A DNA stretch of 39,436 nucleotides from Escherichia phage vB_EcoP_Kapi1. The notes under the pieces were generated by a model, which was not told the DNA's origin, did no database searches, and worked only from the letters and a program-made list of their open reading frames with translations. The stretch's first letter is position 1. Each line of letters starts with the position of its first letter. The stretch lies in sequence record MT813197; one strand, given 5' to 3'. Of this stretch, positions 1,009-34,063 are shown one piece after another. Position numbers and translations under genes: made by a program.

Positions 1009-1290
1009 TCATTTTTCCTCTTTTGGTTTATGAATCTGAATGGTCATGCCGCTTTGAGTGGTGACTACAATGACAGAACCAGGCTGAAGGCTGTTAAGAT
1101 TGAATGCTTCGTAAAACGAATCCAATGCCAGTGCTTTTTTATTCTTTCGGTTCCACCAACGCCATCCCCTGCTACAGGCCATGTTGACAATCCACTGCCC
1201 ACTCCTGTAAGCCATATAAAACCAGATGAGCAAAACCTGAAGGAAGGCTATCCAGTCAATAATCGTATATTTCGCGAAGGAGTCCATCAC
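1009..1290 (-). CDS. Hypothetical membrane protein (N-terminal TM helix)
   Basis: 93 aa; hydrophobic segment YTIIDWIAFLQVLLIWFYMAY; stop overlaps start of upstream gene. Confidence 0.5.
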   Translation of the reverse strand: MMDSFAKYTIIDWIAFLQVLLIWFYMAYRSGQWIVNMACSRGWRWWNRKNKKALALDSFYEAFNLNSLQPGSVIVVTTQSGMTIQIHKPKEEK

Positions 1291-1934
1291 TTCACCTCCT
1301 GCGGCGGTTCCGGTAGCGGCATCCAGTGAGTTACACCGCCAATTGGCTCATCGTCGTCGTACTCCAATGCGGTTATATAGAACCCGTCACGACGAGAATA
1401 AGAAATCCCTGACATTACAATGCCATCAGAAACAACAATAATGTCACCCGTTTCTTCCGGCATTCGCTCACTACAGCTTATCCAACCATCCGGAATTACC
1501 GGAGAGTTGCCGGGTTCTTTAATGTGCAAGCGAGGCTCACCATCTTTTGGTTCAGGCCACTGGCGCTCCATGTTGATCTTCAATTTATTTTCCATAGCAG
1601 CGGTAATTTCAGCATCACTGATACCAGCACGGCGCTGTGCATCCCACAACAGGAACTGCATATCAGCCCACTCGCTGAGATCGTCAGGTTCGGCTGCGGC
1701 TTCCAGAGCCTCTTTTGAGAGGTGTTTCAGTGGACCAATGGGGCCAACGCAGCCAAATGTGGAGTCAGACCATTTGGCATGCTCGTGGCGAATCTGTTCG
1801 CGTTCCAGTGATGCCAGTGCAATTCGTGCCAGTTCTTCCGCTTCTTCTGCTGGCAGTACAACGTTGCTACCAGGTCCGTATGTTTCGCGCCACTGCTTGA
1901 TTGTCAGCAGTCGCTCTTTGGTAATAGTGGTCAT
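1287..1934 (-). CDS. DUF550/DUF551-type phage protein (putative dATP/dGTP pyrophosphohydrolase-like N-domain plus DUF551 C-domain)
   Basis: 215 aa; C-terminus VTHWMPLPEPP is the DUF551 signature as I recall it; common in lambdoid early-left regions. Confidence 0.6.
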   Translation of the reverse strand: MTTITKERLLTIKQWRETYGPGSNVVLPAEEAEELARIALASLEREQIRHEHAKWSDSTFGCVGPIGPLKHLSKEALEAAAEPDDLSEWADMQFLLWDAQRRAGISDAEITAAMENKLKINMERQWPEPKDGEPRLHIKEPGNSPVIPDGWISCSERMPEETGDIIVVSDGIVMSGISYSRRDGFYITALEYDDDEPIGGVTHWMPLPEPPQEVK

Positions 1935-3987: not shown

Positions 3988-4876
3988 CCTCCAGTTTCGC
4001 TTTGCATTCTATGTAAATGGCTTGTACGTTCTGCTGCAATTTCATTCCAGATGTCAGGCGATATGCTTCTGCAAAATATCTCTTCAAATCATCCATGTTT
4101 TCAGCCTGAGCCATTTCATCACAAAGAAGTTGTGCTTTATCCGTTATTTCCTGCTGGCGTTTCCGTTCATCTTCGCGGATATCTTCCTCTGATTTGTGCG
4201 GCATAACTGGTTCAGTCCATACACCTTCTTCTTCGTTTAGTACGTGAATAGCACTATCAAGACGTGATGCCTTAGGCCAATACTTGCTTGCACGCTTTAC
4301 GACCGTCTTTCGCGCCATCTCATTCCAGTGATTTACCCATGGTCCTTTATCGCTGAATGCCGCCTTGCTTGTTTTCCTTACAGCCTCAATTTCAGCCAGA
4401 CTCATCTCTTCCGTTAGATAATCACCTGCTGGCGTCTTAACTGTGCAGTAAACACCAACGATATCGCCACGATCACCGAAGGCGTTGTATTTATGGGTTG
4501 GTGCTTTATCAAGTCCGTTTGACTCATAAGTATCGTTAGCATGAACAAGCTTTGCCTGACCCCATGAGATAACACCAGACTCCATTGCAATATGTAGCAA
4601 TCCCATATAGCTGATATCAAGGCAAACCATGCCGTCGCGCGGAACCAGATAAGCCAGTTTGCTAGCCGGGTTTAAGGTGATACCGATCGCCGCAACATTG
4701 ATGATGGCGTTCTGTGCGCTGGTTGGATTTGCCAGTGCTGTTTTAGCCAGGTAATCATTTTTCTGGAAATACTGAATTGCAAACTGGCTTTCCTTAGCCC
4801 ATGTCACCGTCTGTTCAGTCAATGCTCCGCAGAATAACTGCTCCTGCTGTTTAACGAATTCAACGATATTGCTCAT
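3965..4876 (-). CDS. recT: RecT-family single-strand annealing recombinase
   Basis: 303 aa; motif GPWVNHWNEMARKTVVKRASKYWP parallels RecT GPWVTHWEEMAKKTAIRRLFKYLP. Confidence 0.85.
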   Translation of the reverse strand: MSNIVEFVKQQEQLFCGALTEQTVTWAKESQFAIQYFQKNDYLAKTALANPTSAQNAIINVAAIGITLNPASKLAYLVPRDGMVCLDISYMGLLHIAMESGVISWGQAKLVHANDTYESNGLDKAPTHKYNAFGDRGDIVGVYCTVKTPAGDYLTEEMSLAEIEAVRKTSKAAFSDKGPWVNHWNEMARKTVVKRASKYWPKASRLDSAIHVLNEEEGVWTEPVMPHKSEEDIREDERKRQQEITDKAQLLCDEMAQAENMDDLKRYFAEAYRLTSGMKLQQNVQAIYIECKAKLEVASEQTI

Positions 4877-5184
4877 GCAGCTTCTCCATAAATATGTCTG
4901 CGTTTGAATATTGCGAAGGCATATTCAGCCTTAACTCTTTCGGTTATTGCATCCCAGAACCATTCAGCGGCTTTTTCCTGATAGTTACAGTCATCATCTT
5001 CCAGCCAGTCGATAGCGTCCTTAGTGTGTTCATCTGGTTTATATGAGCGAAGCATTTCGCTTATTGGGTCGCAACGTTTGCAGAGGCGATCAACTTCACT
5101 GTTGATTCGTTCGTAATCTTCATCAGTAAAACTTGCGATTATTTGCGATATTTCACGCTTATCATTCAGAGTCAGAATCATCAT
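4873..5184 (-). CDS. Hypothetical protein (103 aa) upstream of recT
   Basis: Overlaps recT start by 4 nt (translational coupling). Confidence 0.5.
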   Translation of the reverse strand: MMILTLNDKREISQIIASFTDEDYERINSEVDRLCKRCDPISEMLRSYKPDEHTKDAIDWLEDDDCNYQEKAAEWFWDAITERVKAEYAFAIFKRRHIYGEAA

Positions 5185-5620: not shown

Positions 5621-5869
5621 CTACTCTATTTCTTCTTCGAATGATTTTATTAGTCGGTCAATAACATCATCCGTTTCAATATCATTTCCGTCTGATTGCT
5701 TTAATACATCTATTGATTCTGCAGCGGTAAATTCCATCGCTGTGAGAAACTCGACAATTGCACACTCAACGACATATCGTTCTTCATCTGTACGACATGA
5801 GATAAAAGAGCATTTAATTGCTGTTATTACTTTTTGTTTAAGCTCTGCAGGGTAATCAGTTTTTATCAT
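5621..5869 (-). CDS. Hypothetical small acidic protein (82 aa, about 20 D/E)
   Basis: Strongly acidic composition, C-terminus SFEEEIE. Confidence 0.5.
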   Translation of the reverse strand: MIKTDYPAELKQKVITAIKCSFISCRTDEERYVVECAIVEFLTAMEFTAAESIDVLKQSDGNDIETDDVIDRLIKSFEEEIE

Positions 5870-6043: not shown

Positions 6044-6667
6044 TTATGCGACCTCGGAAGGAAGTCCAATCATCTTATTCAAATCTTCTACCCGTAAAGC
6101 AGGAAGTGCTGTACTTGCTTTATCTGCTTCTTTTGGTAGCAACTCTTTGCTTTCAGGCCAAACTTCAATAAGTCGCTTAACTGTTGTGACTGAGTTCAAA
6201 GCAGCCCATACATTTGATTCGATATCCTTTTTCTTGGCTTCAAGTTTTTGTTGCAATGCGCAGATTTCATCAAACCTTTTTGTTATTTCGTGTTCTGCGC
6301 TAAACATGCATTTATCTTTGGTCGGAGTAGGGAGCAATATATCTTCGCCGTTGCCGTCTTTCCCATATGAATACCAGCCAACCCTTCTGCCAGATACAGT
6401 CAGATAAATTGAAGTTGAACGGGCATCGCATGAGTAAAATGAACATCCCAGCTTTTCAAGTTCTTCGCTTATAGCCATTAACTTGGATGATAACTGATCC
6501 ACTTCCTCAGTTTTCTTTTTACCGCCAAACACAACAACTCTGGCGTCAAGTGCAAGCTGGTTCTTTAACTTTGTTACTTCTTCAAGCTCAGTGAAAACCC
6601 CAGATTTAATTAAAGCGTTACGAGCGATTTTCTCTTTCATACTCGTTGTTAAGCGGATTGATGACAT
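6044..6667 (-). CDS. Hypothetical protein (207 aa)
   Basis: ORF 6044..6727; start moved to in-frame ATG at 6665-6667, which has a GAGAGG RBS. Confidence 0.5.
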   Translation of the reverse strand: MSSIRLTTSMKEKIARNALIKSGVFTELEEVTKLKNQLALDARVVVFGGKKKTEEVDQLSSKLMAISEELEKLGCSFYSCDARSTSIYLTVSGRRVGWYSYGKDGNGEDILLPTPTKDKCMFSAEHEITKRFDEICALQQKLEAKKKDIESNVWAALNSVTTVKRLIEVWPESKELLPKEADKASTALPALRVEDLNKMIGLPSEVA

Positions 6668-6780
6668 ATTAATTCCTCTCAAATAAGTGGTTTGCTGCCT
6701 AATTTCATTTTCTGGCGACCAACACAAGTCACGCCCATTTCACTGCGTGGTTTGCTGTAGTAAATTCGGTTAGTTCAGAC

Positions 6781-14491: not shown

Positions 14492-14676
14492 ACGCCACAA
14501 TTCAAACGATACCAGAGCTTCTTATCCAGACACGAGGCAATCAGACCGAAGTGGCGAGGATGCTTTCCTGCGCAAGAGGAACAGTGCTCAAGTACAACCG
14601 AGACAGCAAAGGCGAGCGTCACGTAATAGTTAACGGCGTCCTGATGGTCAAACAGGGCAAAAGGGGAAGGCCATGA
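14488..14676 (+). CDS. ninH: NinH
   Basis: 62 aa; GNQTEVARMLSCARGTVLKY matches lambda NinH core as recalled. Confidence 0.75.
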   Translation: MNATIQTIPELLIQTRGNQTEVARMLSCARGTVLKYNRDSKGERHVIVNGVLMVKQGKRGRP

Positions 14677-15296
14677 GACTCGAAAGCGTAGCTAAATTTC
14701 ATTCGCCAAAAAGCCCGATGATGAGTGACTCACCACGGGCCACGGCTTCTGACTCTCTTTCCGGTACTGATGTGATGGCTGCTATGGGGATGGCGCAATC
14801 ACAAGCCGGATTCGGAATGGCTGCATTCTGCGGTAAGCATGAACTCAGCCAGAACGACAAACAAAAGGCTATCAACTATCTGATGCAATTTGCACACAAG
14901 GTATCGGGGAAATACCGTGGTGTGGCAAAGCTTGAAGGAAATACTAAGGCAAAGGTACTGCAAGTGCTCGCAACATTCGCTTATGCGGATTATTGCCGTA
15001 GTGCCGCGACGCCGGGCGCAAGATGCAGAGATTGCCACGGTACAGGCCGTGCGGTTGATATAGCCAAAACAGAGCAGTGGGGGAGAGTTGTTGAGAAAGA
15101 GTGCGGAAGATGCAAAGGTGTCGGCTATTCAAGAATGCCAGCAAGCGCCGCATATCGCGCTGTAACGATGCTAATCCCAAACCTTACTCAACCCACCTGG
15201 TCACGCACTGTTAAGCCGCTGTATGACGCTCTGGTGGTGCAATGCCACAAAGAAGAGTCAATCGCAGACAACATTTTGAACGCGGTCACACGTTAG
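14673..15296 (+). CDS. Q: Late gene antiterminator Q (lambda-type)
   Basis: 207 aa, MRLESVAKFHSPKSPMMSDSPRATASDSLSG...; essentially lambda Q as recalled. Confidence 0.9.
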   Translation: MRLESVAKFHSPKSPMMSDSPRATASDSLSGTDVMAAMGMAQSQAGFGMAAFCGKHELSQNDKQKAINYLMQFAHKVSGKYRGVAKLEGNTKAKVLQVLATFAYADYCRSAATPGARCRDCHGTGRAVDIAKTEQWGRVVEKECGRCKGVGYSRMPASAAYRAVTMLIPNLTQPTWSRTVKPLYDALVVQCHKEESIADNILNAVTR

Positions 15297-15338
15297 CAGC
15301 ATGATTGCCACGGATGGCAACATATTAACGGCATGATA

Positions 15339-15568
15339 TTGACTTTTTGAATAAAGTTGGGTAAATTTGACCCAACGATGGGTTAATTCGCTCGTTGTGG
15401 TAGTGAGATAAAAAGAGGCGGCGCTTACTACCGATTCCGCCTAGTTGGTCACTTCGACGTATCGTCTGGAACTCCAACCATCGCAGGCTGAGAGGTCTGC
15501 AAAATGCAATCCCGAAACAGTTCGCAGGTAATAGTTAGAGCCTGCACAACGGTTTAGGGATTTTTTAT
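15339..15568 (+). promoter_or_regulatory. Late promoter pR' (TTGACT -35 at 15339-15344, TAAATT -10 at 15362-15367), qut, 6S leader and tR' terminator
   Basis: Near-identical to the lambda pR'-tR' segment as recalled; ends in GGGATTTTTTATTT. Confidence 0.65.
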
Positions 15569-15570
15569 TT

Positions 15571-15645
15571 GGGTCAGTCGTATAAAGGTCATTACGGAAG
15601 GCTGTTAACCTTCTTATCGTGGTTCGAGTCCACGCTGTCCCGCCA
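15571..15645 (+). tRNA. tRNA-Asn (anticodon GTT), one U-U mismatch in acceptor stem
   Basis: Hand fold: acceptor 6/7 bp, anticodon stem GAAGG/CCTTC with loop CTGTTAA, T-arm CGTGG-TTCGAGT-CCACG, 3' CCA encoded. Confidence 0.6.
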
Positions 15646-15650
15646 AATAT

Positions 15651-15726
15651 GCTGGTTTAGCTCCAATGGTAGAGCAGTCGCCTTGTAAGCGAATGGGTAG
15701 CGGTTCAAGTCCGTTAACCAGCACCA
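15651..15726 (+). tRNA. tRNA-Thr (anticodon TGT)
   Basis: Hand fold: perfect 7-bp acceptor GCTGGTT/AACCAGC, D-arm GCTC/GAGC, anticodon loop CTTGTAA, T-loop TTCAAGT, 3' CCA encoded. Confidence 0.7.
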
Positions 15727-15968
15727 TAACTGAGCCGTAGCCACTGGCTATCCTGAATTCATCAGTGATGGTTACGCTGCGGCATTCTACGCATGACCTT
15801 CGTGAAAGCGGGTGGCAAGAGGCTGCGCTAACAACCTCCTGCCGTTTTGCCCGTGCATATCGGTCACGAACAAATCTGATTACTAAACACAGTAGCCTGG
15901 ATTTGTTCTATCAGTAATCGACCTTATTCCTAATTAAATAGAGCAAATCCCCTTATTGGGGGTAAGAC

Positions 15969-16292
15969 ATGAAGATGCCAGAAAAACATGACCTGTTAGC
16001 CGCCATTCTCGCGGCAAAGGAACAAGGCATCGGGGCAATCCTTGCGTTTGCAATGGCGTACCTTCGCGGCAGATATAATGGCGGTGCGTTTACAAAAACA
16101 GTAATCGACGCAACGATGTGCGCCATTATCGCCTGGTTCATTCGTGACCTTCTCGACTTCGCCGGACTAAGTAGCAATCTCGCTTATATAACGAGCGTGT
16201 TCATCGGCTACATCGGTACTGACTCGATTGGTTCGCTTATCAAACGCTTCGCTGCTAAAAAAGCCGGAGTAGAAGATGGTGGAAATCAATAA
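15969..16292 (+). CDS. S: Holin S (lambda class I holin, dual-start MKM motif)
   Basis: 107 aa, [39 protein letters not shown]; essentially lambda S. Confidence 0.95.
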
Positions 16293-16752
16293 TCAACGTA
16301 AGGCGTTCCTCGATATGCTGGCGTGGTCAGAGGGAACTGATAACGGACGGCAGAAAACCAGAAATCATGGTTATGACGTCATTGTTGGCGGAGAGCTATT
16401 CACTGATTACTCCGATCACCCTCGCAAACTTGTCACGCTAAACCCCAAACTCAAATCAACAGCCGCCGGACGTTACCAGCTTCTTTCACGTTGGTGGGAT
16501 GCATACCGTAAGCAGCTTGGCCTGAAAGACTTCTCTCCGAAAAGCCAGGACGCTGTGGCATTGCAACAGATTAAAGAGCGTGGCGCTTTGCCGATGATTG
16601 ATCGCGGTGATATCCGTCAGGCAATCGACCGTTGCAGCAATATCTGGGCTTCGTTGCCCGGGGCTGGTTATGGCCAGTTCGAGCATAAGGCTGACAGCCT
16701 GATTGCAAAATTCAAAGAAGCAGGCGGAACGGTCAGAGAGATTGAGGTATGA
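16276..16752 (+). CDS. R: Endolysin R (lytic transglycosylase)
   Basis: 158 aa, [35 protein letters not shown]; lambda R-like. Confidence 0.95.
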
Positions 16753-17216
16753 GCAGAGTCACCGCGATTATCTCCGCTCTGGTTATCTGCATCATCGTCG
16801 GCCTGTCATGGGCTGTTAATCATTACCGTGATAACGCCATCGCCTACAAAGAACAGCGTGATAAAAAAGTCAGTGAGCTGAAGCAGGCGACCGCCACCAT
16901 TACTGACATGCAGCAACGCCAGCGTGCTGCTGATGCACTCGATGCTAAATACACGAAGGAGTTAGCTGATGCGAAAGCTGAAAATGATGCTCTTCGGCGC
17001 AAGCTTGATAATGGTGGCAGGGTGCTCGTCAAAGGAAAATGCCCTGTGCCATCCTCAGCCGAAACCTCCAGCGCCTCCGGCATGGGCAATGATGCCACCG
17101 TCGAACTCTCTCCAGTTGCTGGACGAAACGTTCTCGGTGTCCGGGACGGAATTATCCGCGACCAAACAGCACTGAGAACGCTTCAGGAATACATCAGGAC
17201 GCAATGCCTTCGATGA
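16749..17216 (+). CDS. Rz: i-spanin Rz
   Basis: 155 aa, N-terminal TM segment then coiled coil; lambda Rz-like N-terminal half. Confidence 0.85.
16969..17175 (+). CDS. Rz1: o-spanin Rz1 (lipoprotein) embedded in +1 frame of Rz
   Basis: Lipobox MVAGC followed by proline-rich [11 protein letters not shown]. Confidence 0.75.
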
Positions 17217-33804: not shown

Positions 33805-34001
33805 ACCACCTCCATAGCATTTTGGTGATATTACTATTGTCAGATGCACCAAAGTACCCTTTGCGCATCCCATTAGAGGTTAAGTTAGCAATCGAGAAGT
33901 CAGCGAAAGAAAATGGTCGCTCAATAAATACCGAGATGGTAATGCGATTGGTGGATAGTTTAAGGCGGGATAGTTCTAAAGGTAATCTAGCAAAAAGTTG
34001 A
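33798..34001 (+). CDS. arc: Arc-like repressor (ribbon-helix-helix); start uncertain
   Basis: [38 protein letters not shown] parallels P22 Arc; candidate starts GTG 33798, GTG 33825, TTG 33837. Confidence 0.65.
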
Positions 34002-34063
34002 AGCCCCAACTGCGGGAACAGTCAGGGCTTCGGTATCAACAAATCGGCTTAGGAAATATTGAC

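What the first reader, a model, noticed from the sequence alone, without database searches (positions are those of the whole stretch)
15571..15726. Two tRNA genes (Asn-GTT, Thr-TGT) inserted between tR' and holin S in an otherwise lambda-like Q-S region
The Q gene, pR'/qut/tR' and S-R-Rz are near-identical to lambda as I recall it, but the segment just after tR' is replaced by two closely spaced tRNA-like sequences that fold into cloverleaves by hand. The Asn candidate has one acceptor-stem mismatch. Phage-borne tRNAs at this spot would be co-transcribed with late genes and could compensate codon usage or counter tRNA-targeting host defences.
Basis: seen in the sequence. Interest (0 to 1): 0.5.

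Follow-up and report, generated by a model that had tools for sequence, protein, structure and literature searches.

The report
Known lambdoid late-operon tRNA-Asn/tRNA-Thr pair
The two tRNA genes are real, but they are the long-annotated Asn/Thr pair of phage 21 and Sf6, whose Thr member was shown in 2025 to let phages survive a tRNA-cutting defence enzyme, so this is an ordinary copy of a known element.

Summary
ARAGORN and the Rfam tRNA model both call tRNA-Asn(GTT) at 15571-15645 and tRNA-Thr(TGT) at 15651-15726, and nothing else in the window. They lie between a lambda-type Q/pR'/tR' and a lambda-type S-R-Rz. They replace about 160 bp of unrelated lambda DNA rather than being a pure insertion.

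The element is not new. The window is 100% identical to a P22-like prophage of E. coli MP1. Both tRNAs are base-for-base identical to the annotated genes of phage 21 and Sf6. The pair occurs in 369 of 5,426 complete E. coli genomes. Papers on P22-like phages already describe tRNA genes at this position.

Function is partly solved. Govande et al. 2025 showed that phage 21's tRNA-Thr(UGU), the same sequence, resists the P2 Old nuclease and rescues cells from it. Old and PARIS AriB both also cleave host tRNA-Asn(GUU). Both tRNAs here lack the host features these nucleases recognise: the paired CNG motif, U16 and U39.

Codon supplementation is partly supported. ACA is twice as frequent and Asn 1.5 times as frequent in the phage genes as in host genes. 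The resistant-replacement role of the Asn gene is my inference and has not been tested.

Verdict: already known, low interest.

The parts
14673..15296 (+). Late antiterminator gene Q, lambda type.
   Evidence: The ORF is listed. It is 206/207 aa identical to lambda Q and is annotated as an antitermination protein in the identical MP1 prophage.
15339..15367 (+). Late promoter pR' (TTGACT, 17-bp spacer, TAAATT).
   Evidence: It is the only promoter-like site found in 15250-16000. It lies in the block that is 97.5% identical to lambda.
15510..15569 (+). tR' terminator: a long hairpin followed by a U-tract that ends 1-2 nt before the tRNA-Asn 5' end. It carries a C-to-A change at 15557 relative to lambda.
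   Evidence: It aligns with lambda and mEp506 tR'. Over the same span it folds at -18.9 kcal/mol, against -24.9 for lambda and mEp506.
15571..15645 (+). tRNA-Asn(GTT), 75 nt with encoded CCA, discriminator G73 and a conserved U4.U69 mismatch.
   Evidence: It is called by ARAGORN and by Rfam at 55.3 bits. It is 100% identical to the phage 21, Sf6 and phage L genes. Three base pairs show compensatory changes in the Klebsiella-phage versions.
15646..15650 (+). Five-nucleotide spacer (AATAT) between the two tRNAs.
   Evidence: Read directly from the sequence. It holds the only difference from phage 21 and Sf6 within the pair: T here, C there.
15651..15726 (+). tRNA-Thr(TGT), 76 nt with encoded CCA. 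Its anticodon stem has four pairs because of a G27xA43 mismatch, and pair 28-42 is U-A.
   Evidence: It is called by ARAGORN and by Rfam at 61.5 bits. It is 100% identical to the phage 21 gene, named tRNA-Thr21 in PMC12445682. Eight base pairs show compensatory changes, a count reached by 0 of 500 shuffles.
15727..15968 (+). Conserved untranslated leader between the tRNAs and S. It is shared with lambda and Sf6, and its first 62 bp are also shared with phage 21.
   Evidence: Shown by the alignment and the blastn segments.
15969..17216 (+). Lysis genes: S (15969-16292), R (16276-16752) and Rz (16749-17216).
   Evidence: The ORFs are listed. S is 106/107 aa and R 156/158 aa identical to lambda. 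The genes are annotated in the MP1 record.

Best explanation
These are two functional elongator tRNA genes that form the known late-leader tRNA cassette of lambdoid and P22-like phages, of the phage 21/Sf6 type.

Proposed mechanism, with each step marked as shown or inferred:
1. RNA polymerase starting at the constitutive pR' is modified by Q, reads through tR' and transcribes Asn, Thr and then S-R-Rz and the virion genes. This is inferred from the anatomy, because there is no other promoter.
2. Host RNase P and 3' processing enzymes excise the tRNAs. This is inferred. Both genes encode CCA.
3. Host AsnRS and ThrRS charge them. The identity elements are present, namely the GUU anticodon with G73, and G1-C72, C2-G71 with the UGU anticodon. 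Decoding is shown in the literature only for the Thr gene.
4. [quoted passage not shown] The host tRNA-Thr(UGU) comes from a single gene, thrU, and is the only reader of ACA. Toprim tRNA nucleases carried by rival P2/P4-type elements, P2 Old and PARIS AriB, destroy these host tRNAs when a phage is sensed. The replacements keep late-protein synthesis going. This is shown for the identical Thr sequence against P2 Old. It is inferred for the Asn gene and for AriB.
5. A secondary benefit is extra decoding capacity for phage genes rich in ACA and Asn codons.
For: Both genes are real tRNAs by two methods.

Purifying selection on structure:
- The Thr alignment has 8 pairs with changes on both sides, a count reached by 0 of 500 shuffles. 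It includes the recent changes G5-C68 to U5-A68 and G10-C25 to U10-A25 among E. coli prophages.
- The Asn alignment has 3 compensatory pairs.

Identity to studied genes:
- Both sequences are exactly those of phage 21 and Sf6.
- The same paper reports that phage 21 tRNA-Thr protects against P2 Old and resists cleavage, through a shorter anticodon stem plus C28U/G42A.
- The window gene has exactly those features: G27xA43, U28-A42, and no CNG on either strand.

The Asn half:
- Host tRNA-Asn(GUU) is a slower substrate of Old.
- It is a 'secondary, yet biologically relevant' AriB target alongside tRNA-Thr(UGU) (PMC12409363).
- The window's Asn gene has A28-U42 where the host has C28-G42, so it has no CNG motif.

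AriB determinants: both window tRNAs have A16 instead of the host's U16, and lack U39. They read UAAG and UAAC where the hosts read UAAU.

Recurrence: the Asn-then-Thr arrangement recurs in the unrelated coliphages P1, N4 and CMS-2020a.

Expression: no second promoter was found. In BTP1, whose module is 99.4% identical, the two tRNA genes are mentioned with the highly expressed prophage loci.

Codon demand: ACA is 13.8/1000 in late genes and 15.1/1000 in early genes against 6.6/1000 in host genes. Asn is 51/1000 in late genes against 35/1000 in host genes.
Against: - Nothing here measures expression or cleavage for this prophage.
- The Asn gene has never been tested against Old or AriB. Its anticodon stem is a full 5 bp, whereas in tRNA-ThrU both a CNG change and stem shortening were needed for resistance.
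- The Klebsiella-phage versions of the Asn gene keep a paired CNG motif.
- No tRNA-Lys(UUU) is encoded. Host tRNA-Lys(UUU) is a prime AriB target, and in most of the rescue assays reported the T5 Lys variant had to be supplied. The pair therefore cannot be a complete anti-PARIS set.
- The P2 old allele itself is rare: 17 of 5,426 E. coli genomes at megablast sensitivity, against 369 for the tRNA pair. P2 Old alone can hardly explain the pair's frequency.
- No Gam-like RecBCD inhibitor, which is the known Old trigger, was recognised in this prophage.
- Tests of the phage 21 tRNA used plasmid expression or in vitro transcripts, not the native late-operon context.
- A late-operon position delivers the tRNAs after early triggers have already fired.
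Confidence: 0.6

Rival explanations
1. Codon supplementation only. The tRNAs exist to raise decoding capacity for ACA and AAC/AAU during the burst of late-protein synthesis, and nuclease resistance is incidental.
For: ACA makes up 24% of Thr codons in late genes and 33% in early genes, against 12% in 39 host genes of the same strain (p about 1e-6 and 2e-11). Asn codons are 1.47 times as frequent in late genes as in host genes (p = 3e-7). ACA is read only by the single-copy thrU tRNA. The phage L paper makes the same argument from AAC use in the capsid gene.
Against: - AGA, AGG, AAG and TCA are more enriched than ACA, yet no matching tRNAs are carried.
- Host tRNA-Asn has four gene copies, and the AAC share in late genes equals the host's (53% against 56%, p = 0.42).
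- ACA enrichment is strongest in early genes, which are translated before late-operon tRNAs would accumulate.
- Supplementation does not explain why both tRNAs differ from the host's at exactly the nuclease-recognition positions.
- It also does not explain why extra host tRNA-ThrU does not rescue Old toxicity while the phage version does.
Confidence: 0.25
2. Lysogenic-conversion role. Leaky readthrough of tR' from the constitutive pR' expresses the tRNAs in the lysogen. This would protect the host cell, and so the prophage, from tRNase toxins or from self-damage by its own defence systems.
For: pR' is constitutive in lambda (established knowledge). The tRNAs start 1-2 nt after the tR' U-tract. 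In this window tR' is predicted to be 6 kcal/mol weaker than in lambda. The BTP1 transcriptome paper groups the two tRNA genes with the highly expressed loci of the lysogen.
Against: BTP1 induces spontaneously at a high rate, so the RNA-seq signal may come from induced cells. Standard RNA-seq quantifies tRNAs poorly. The weakened tR' is specific to the MP1-type sequence and is not found in HK446 or mEp506. No phenotype has been reported.
Confidence: 0.08
3. RNA-processing element. The tRNAs mainly serve as RNase P and RNase E cleavage signals that detach the 5' leader (qut plus tR') from the lysis and morphogenesis mRNA and so set its stability.
For: The position is exact: the pair sits between the terminator and the conserved S leader. 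[quoted passage not shown]
Against: Lambda and P22 express the same late operon without any tRNA at this position. The anticodons and synthetase identity elements are conserved, which a pure processing signal would not require. The Thr gene is functional in decoding.
Confidence: 0.05
4. Non-functional mosaic passenger or decaying tRNA relics.
For: Some relatives have clearly decayed copies. The phage L 'Leu-TAA' gene is a 72-nt derivative of the Thr gene that ARAGORN does not call. Klebsiella phage 2b has lost the second gene and the encoded CCA.
Against: The pair in this window scores well above the tRNA threshold. Its stems evolve by compensatory changes. It is at least 99% identical in 262 E. 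coli records. The identical Thr sequence is active in cells.
Confidence: 0.02

Closest known systems
Phage 21 tRNA-Asn and tRNA-Thr (OL657228, CPT_21_64 and CPT_21_65). The Thr gene is 'tRNA-Thr21' of Govande et al. 2025.
   Same: Both tRNA sequences are 100% identical to the window's. The order, the 5-nt spacing and the position directly after tR' are the same. Homology runs over window 15561-15788.
   Different: Phage 21 has a different Q, qut and tR', and a different lysis cassette (S21 pinholin and SAR endolysin). One base differs in the spacer.
Shigella phage Sf6 tRNA genes Sf6t01 and Sf6t02, and their equivalents in P22-like phages (BTP1, SfI, SPN9CC, SEN22, HK446, mEp506).
   Same: The tRNAs are identical. 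The virus type is the same (P22-like). The lambda-type S-R-Rz downstream is the same, at 96.9% identity over window 15558-16865. HK446, mEp506 and phiv205-1 also share the lambda-type Q, at 98.6% over the whole Q-to-S intergenic region.
   Different: Sf6 has a phage 21-type Q, pR' and tR' upstream, so the cassette is joined to a different antitermination module.
[quoted passage not shown]
   Same: The logic is the same: phage isoacceptors with substitutions around the nuclease cut site replace the cleaved host tRNAs. The same two anticodons, Thr UGU and Asn GUU, are involved.
   Different: T5 is a virulent phage with a large tRNA set that includes the essential Lys(UUU) variant. This window has no tRNA-Lys. 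Sequence relatedness to the T5 genes was not examined.
Other occupants of the same slot between Q/tR' and the holin: phage L (Asn plus a degenerate 'Leu-TAA'), Klebsiella phage Mulock (Asn-Phe-Thr-Arg), Tbat2_3 (Asn-Phe-Thr), and, from my own knowledge, ileZ-argN-argO of Stx phage 933W.
   Same: The genomic position and the presumed late co-transcription are the same. The Asn and Thr genes are homologous, at 87-96% identity.
   Different: The tRNA complement differs. The Klebsiella-phage Asn versions retain the paired CNG motif. The 933W comparison rests on memory and was not tested here.
Phage P1 trnA-trnT, the phage N4 Asn-Ser-Thr cluster and the CMS-2020a Asn-Tyr-Thr cluster.
   Same: The order is again Asn followed by Thr, with the same anticodons. 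The Thr genes are 80-86% identical to the window's by blastn. All have G39 in place of the host's U39.
   Different: The phage types and genomic contexts are unrelated. The N4 Asn gene is only 48/78 identical to the window's, and the P1 and CMS-2020a Asn genes did not match the window's Asn in the blastn search. P1 Thr keeps a full 5-bp stem with a paired CNG motif.

Membership tests
Bacterial elongator tRNA (Rfam RF00005) | Cloverleaf sequence and structure scoring above the curated threshold. | tested here: met
   The genes score 55.3 and 61.5 bits against a gathering score of 29. ARAGORN calls both.
Bacterial elongator tRNA (Rfam RF00005) | Seven-nucleotide anticodon loop with U33 and a purine at 37, a T-loop of the GTTCRA type, and (in E. 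coli genes) an encoded CCA. | tested here: met
   The anticodon loops are CTGTTAA and CTTGTAA. The T-arms are GGTTCGAGTCC and GGTTCAAGTCC. Both genes end in CCA.
Bacterial elongator tRNA (Rfam RF00005) | Stems maintained by compensatory substitutions among homologues. | tested here: met
   The Thr alignment has 8 pairs changed on both sides and 96.6% of cells paired, reached by 0 of 500 shuffles. The Asn alignment has 3 such pairs, but only 4 distinct sequences.
Bacterial elongator tRNA (Rfam RF00005) | Mature, aminoacylated tRNA is produced in cells. | not testable with these tools
   The literature shows that the identical Thr sequence rescues ACA decoding when expressed from a plasmid. BTP1 RNA-seq mentions the two tRNA genes among expressed loci. 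No data exist for the Asn gene.
Lambdoid/P22-like late-leader tRNA cassette (phage 21/Sf6 type) | Located between the late terminator tR' and the holin gene, on the late strand. | tested here: met
   The tR' U-tract ends at 15569, the tRNAs occupy 15571-15726, and S starts at 15969. The layout is the same in Sf6, phage 21, mEp506 and phage L.
Lambdoid/P22-like late-leader tRNA cassette (phage 21/Sf6 type) | Sequence homology to the reference genes. | tested here: met
   Both tRNAs are found as exact matches in the phage 21, Sf6, mEp506 and MP1 loci.
Nuclease-resistant rescue tRNA against P2 Old (Govande 2025) | UGU anticodon, so that it decodes ACA in place of host tRNA-ThrU. | tested here: met
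   The anticodon is TGT. The host has a single thrU-type gene, found in 5,421 of 5,426 genomes with a median of one copy.
Nuclease-resistant rescue tRNA against P2 Old (Govande 2025) | Paired CNG motif (nt 28-30 and 40-42) altered AND anticodon stem shortened. | tested here: met
   This row concerns the Thr gene. It reads UCG and CGA (no CNG) with a G27xA43 mismatch, whereas host thrU reads CUG and CAG with a full 5-bp stem. This matches the paper's description of tRNA-Thr21.
Nuclease-resistant rescue tRNA against P2 Old (Govande 2025) | The same two features, examined in the Asn gene. | tested here: inconclusive
   The CNG motif is lost on both strands (AAG and CUU, against host CGG and CCG), but the stem is a full 5 bp. 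The paper found both changes necessary in the tRNA-ThrU context. The phage Asn gene has never been assayed.
Nuclease-resistant rescue tRNA against P2 Old (Govande 2025) | Measured resistance to cleavage and rescue of viability. | not testable with these tools
   Both are reported for the identical phage 21 Thr sequence. Nothing has been reported for the Asn gene.
Complete anti-PARIS tRNA set (Belukhina 2025) | Supplies resistant Lys(UUU), Thr(UGU) and Asn(GUU) together. | tested here: not met
   The window holds only the Asn and Thr genes and no tRNA-Lys. Host tRNA-Lys(UUU) is a prime AriB target, and in most of the rescue assays reported the T5 Lys variant had to be supplied. Both window tRNAs do lack the AriB determinants U16 and U39.

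The most novel reading that the evidence does not exclude
The Asn gene is not a passenger. It would be a second dedicated nuclease-resistant replacement, and Asn-Thr would be a portable two-gene cassette directed against Toprim tRNases. On this reading, lambdoid, P1-like and N4-like coliphages acquired or retained the cassette independently, because the OLD/PARIS-family nucleases of P2/P4-type elements share the target set Lys/Thr/Asn. Placing the cassette immediately after a leaky tR' would also give the lysogen a low constitutive supply of resistant tRNAs.
Probability: 0.35. Interest if true: 0.45.

Novelty: already known. Interest (0 to 1): 0.18.

Why it matters
The finding itself adds little. 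The pair is annotated in hundreds of genomes, and the role of its Thr member was published in 2025. Its value is as a clean natural example of prophage-against-prophage conflict. A lambdoid or P22-like phage carries, at the head of its late operon, replacements for two of the tRNAs that nucleases from P2/P4-type elements destroy. The one open and cheaply testable point is whether the Asn gene is also nuclease-resistant. A second open point is whether the pair, in its native position, protects the phage on hosts carrying Old or PARIS.

Tried and rejected
- I asked whether the roughly 160 bp that lambda has in place of the tRNAs is a decayed tRNA pair. ARAGORN finds nothing in the lambda locus, and the alignment shows no similarity beyond the shared flanks. 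Rejected.
- I looked for an independent promoter for the tRNAs. Only pR' is found in 15250-16000. The simple terminator scan did not pick up tR', so tR' was confirmed by alignment and folding instead.
- I looked for a Gam-like RecBCD inhibitor, the trigger of P2 Old, in the early-left operon. The 103-aa ORF at the gam position has no Pfam hit and belongs only to an unannotated PHROG family. This remains unresolved.
- The first PARIS paper (PMC11464382) does not mention Asn or Thr targets. The follow-up paper (PMC12409363) does.
- Supplementary tables of the Old paper, which would list cleaved tRNAs and the tRNA-Thr21 sequence, are not held as text. Identity was therefore established against the phage 21 genome record and the paper's verbal description.
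- I checked whether P2 old is common enough to explain the cassette's frequency. Only 17 of 5,426 genomes carry it at megablast sensitivity. Any selective pressure must therefore come from a wider nuclease family or from codon demand.
- A genome-wide co-occurrence test between the cassette and OLD or PARIS could not be done, because the search tool lists at most 60 records.

Full report
**Observation**

ARAGORN finds exactly two tRNA genes in the 39,436-bp window. They are tRNA-Asn(gtt) at 15571-15645 and tRNA-Thr(tgt) at 15651-15726, both on the + strand. The Rfam tRNA covariance model scores them 55.3 and 61.5 bits against a gathering score of 29, with E-values of 2e-9 and 4e-11. Both genes encode a 3' CCA.

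**Context**

- The window is 100% identical over 35,960 nt to a P22-like prophage next to dsdC/torI in E. coli MP1.
- Upstream of the tRNAs lie a lambda-type Q (206/207 aa identical to lambda Q), pR' (TTGACT, 17-bp spacer, TAAATT, at 15339-15367) and tR'.
- Downstream lie lambda-type S (106/107 aa), R (156/158 aa) and Rz.
- Homology to lambda runs over window 14662-15568 (97.5%) and 15724-16960 (94.9%).
- The tRNA segment therefore replaces about 160 bp of unrelated lambda DNA (lambda 44782-44941). That lambda DNA contains no tRNA and shows no similarity to the cassette.
- The left junction is the tR' U-tract, 1-2 nt before G1 of tRNA-Asn. The right junction falls at the CCA end of tRNA-Thr.
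- No promoter-like site other than pR' lies between Q and S.

**The element is already known**

- Both tRNAs are base-for-base identical to the annotated tRNA genes of phage 21 and Shigella phage Sf6. The Sf6 record of 2004 labels them 'similar to phage 21'.
- The whole Q-to-S intergenic region is 98.6% identical in phages HK446, mEp506 and phiv205-1.
- The 156-bp pair is found in 369 of 5,426 complete E. coli genomes, where PGAP annotates it as tRNA-Asn and tRNA-Thr.
- It is also found in BTP1, SfI, SPN9CC, SEN22 and other phages.
- The epsilon34 and phage L genome papers state that some P22-like phages carry tRNA genes at exactly this place, and they name the Sf6 Asn/Thr pair (PMC2629481, PMC8022706).

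**Evidence that the genes are functional**

- Among seven distinct Thr sequences, eight stem pairs change on both sides and 96.6% of cells stay paired. Both values are reached by 0 of 500 shuffles and fall sharply when the pairing is slid by 1 to 3 columns.
- Two of these changes are recent events among E. coli prophages: G5-C68 to U5-A68, and G10-C25 to U10-A25.
- The Asn alignment has only four distinct sequences. It shows three compensatory pairs (6-66, 7-65 and 28-42 in gene positions) between the E. coli/Salmonella versions and the Klebsiella-phage versions. The U4.U69 mismatch is conserved in all of them.
- The synthetase identity elements I know from the literature are present. These are the GUU anticodon with G73 for AsnRS, and G1-C72, C2-G71 with the UGU anticodon for ThrRS. 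This comparison rests on my own knowledge.

**What the cassette does**

Two 2025 papers bear directly on function.

Govande et al. (PMC12445682) show the following:
- Phage tRNA-Thr(UGU) genes rescue cells from Old.
[quoted passage not shown] Belukhina et al. (PMC12409363) show the following:
- PARIS AriB is a related Toprim nuclease.
- It cleaves tRNA-Asn(GUU) as a secondary but biologically relevant target. Its recognition involves U16 and the sequence U36-A-A-U39-C40|A41.

I verified the host gene sequences in the E. coli collection and compared the anticodon arms:

| tRNA | Pairs 27:43 to 31:39 | nt 28-30 / 40-42 | Paired CNG | nt 16 | nt 36-39 |
|---|---|---|---|---|---|
| Host thrU | A-U C-G U-A G-C A-U | CUG / CAG | yes | U | UAAU |
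| Window Thr | GxA U-A C-G G-C C-G | UCG / CGA | no | A | UAAG |
| Host Asn | GoU C-G G-C G-C A-U | CGG / CCG | yes | U | UAAU |
| Window Asn | G-C A-U A-U G-C G-C | AAG / CUU | no | A | UAAC |

The Thr gene here is thus the very sequence shown experimentally to counter P2 Old. The Asn gene carries the kinds of substitution expected of a resistant replacement, but this is inference.

The Asn-then-Thr arrangement also recurs in unrelated coliphages: P1 trnA-trnT, N4 Asn-Ser-Thr and CMS-2020a Asn-Tyr-Thr. This fits a shared selective pressure.

**Caveats**

- The phage Asn stem is a full 5 bp, whereas in tRNA-ThrU both a CNG change and stem shortening were needed for resistance.
- The Klebsiella-phage Asn versions keep a paired CNG motif.
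- No tRNA-Lys is encoded, so the pair is not a full anti-PARIS set.
- P2 old itself is rare, in 17 of 5,426 genomes at megablast sensitivity.
- No Gam-like trigger was recognised in this prophage.
- The published tests of the phage 21 tRNA used plasmid expression or in vitro transcripts, not the native locus.

**Codon usage**

Gene coordinates came from the identical MP1 annotation, and 39 host genes of the same strain served as the reference.

| Measure | Late genes | Early genes | Host genes |
|---|---|---|---|
| ACA per 1000 codons | 13.8 | 15.1 | 6.6 |
| Asn codons per 1000 | 51 | 42 | 35 |
| AAC share of Asn codons | 53% | 53% | 56% |

- The ACA excess over host is significant at about p = 1e-6 for late genes.
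- The AAC share in late genes does not differ from the host's (p = 0.42).
- AGA, AGG, AAG and TCA are more enriched in late genes than ACA is.
- Host tRNA-Asn has four gene copies.

Supplementation is therefore a plausible secondary benefit, especially for ACA, which only the single-copy thrU tRNA reads. It does not explain the choice of Asn plus Thr, nor the nuclease-site substitutions.

**Expression**

Direct evidence for this prophage is lacking. For BTP1, whose module is 99.4% identical, Owen et al. list the two central tRNA genes alongside the highly expressed prophage loci. They place the start of the lytic operon directly after those tRNA genes (PMC7067206). The phage L paper notes that it is unknown whether the tRNAs are excised from late mRNA or have their own promoter.

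**Verdict**

The element is an already known and widely annotated cassette, and its Thr member has a published mechanism. The only modestly new idea is that the Asn gene is a second nuclease-resistant replacement. That idea is testable with one in vitro cleavage assay and simple phage deletions.

Noticed in passing
window 15510-15569 (C-to-A change at 15557): The tR' hairpin differs from lambda, HK446 and mEp506 by a C-to-A change that creates a G.A mismatch in the lower stem. Folded over the same span it gives -18.9 kcal/mol, against -24.9 for lambda and mEp506. The terminator directly in front of the tRNAs may therefore be leakier in this MP1-type prophage.
   Followed up: partly
L005 781-852 (phage L): The annotated 'tRNA-Leu(TAA)' of phage L is a 72-nt derivative of the Thr gene. 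It has a 4-nt deletion and C in place of U33. ARAGORN does not call it, and its minimum-energy fold is not a cloverleaf. It is probably a decayed copy rather than a Leu tRNA.
   Followed up: partly
L015 225-378 (P1); L010 237-486 (N4); L016 261-507 (CMS-2020a); L006 701-1020 (Mulock): The order Asn followed by Thr recurs in unrelated phages: P1 Asn-Thr, N4 Asn-Ser-Thr, CMS-2020a Asn-Tyr-Thr and Klebsiella phage Mulock Asn-Phe-Thr-Arg. Every phage Thr(UGU) examined has G39 where host thrU has U39.
   Followed up: partly
window 33996-34062 (- strand): There is a sar antisense RNA (Rfam RF00262, 72.4 bits) in a P22-type immI region. Arc-family and antirepressor genes are annotated nearby in the MP1 record.
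   Followed up: no
window 1287-1934, 2130-2624 and 6044-6727 (all - strand): The early-left operon encodes a dATP/dGTP pyrophosphohydrolase-domain protein, an XF1762-family protein with a weak sub-threshold Mom match, and an Nmad5 'nucleotide modification' protein. Together they may form a DNA-modification or anti-restriction set.
   Followed up: no
window 4873-5184 (-) and 5621-5869 (-): The 103-aa ORF sits where lambda has gam (order recT, this ORF, kil, cIII). It has no Pfam hit and matches only the unannotated family phrog_3486. The 82-aa ORF matches phrog_14587, described as an 'anti-restriction protein'. Either could be a trigger for RecBCD-sensing or anti-restriction-sensing defence systems.
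   Followed up: partly
E. coli genome collection: The P2 old allele is found in only 17 of 5,426 complete E. coli genomes at megablast sensitivity. That is far rarer than the tRNA pair, which is in 369 genomes.
   Followed up: partly
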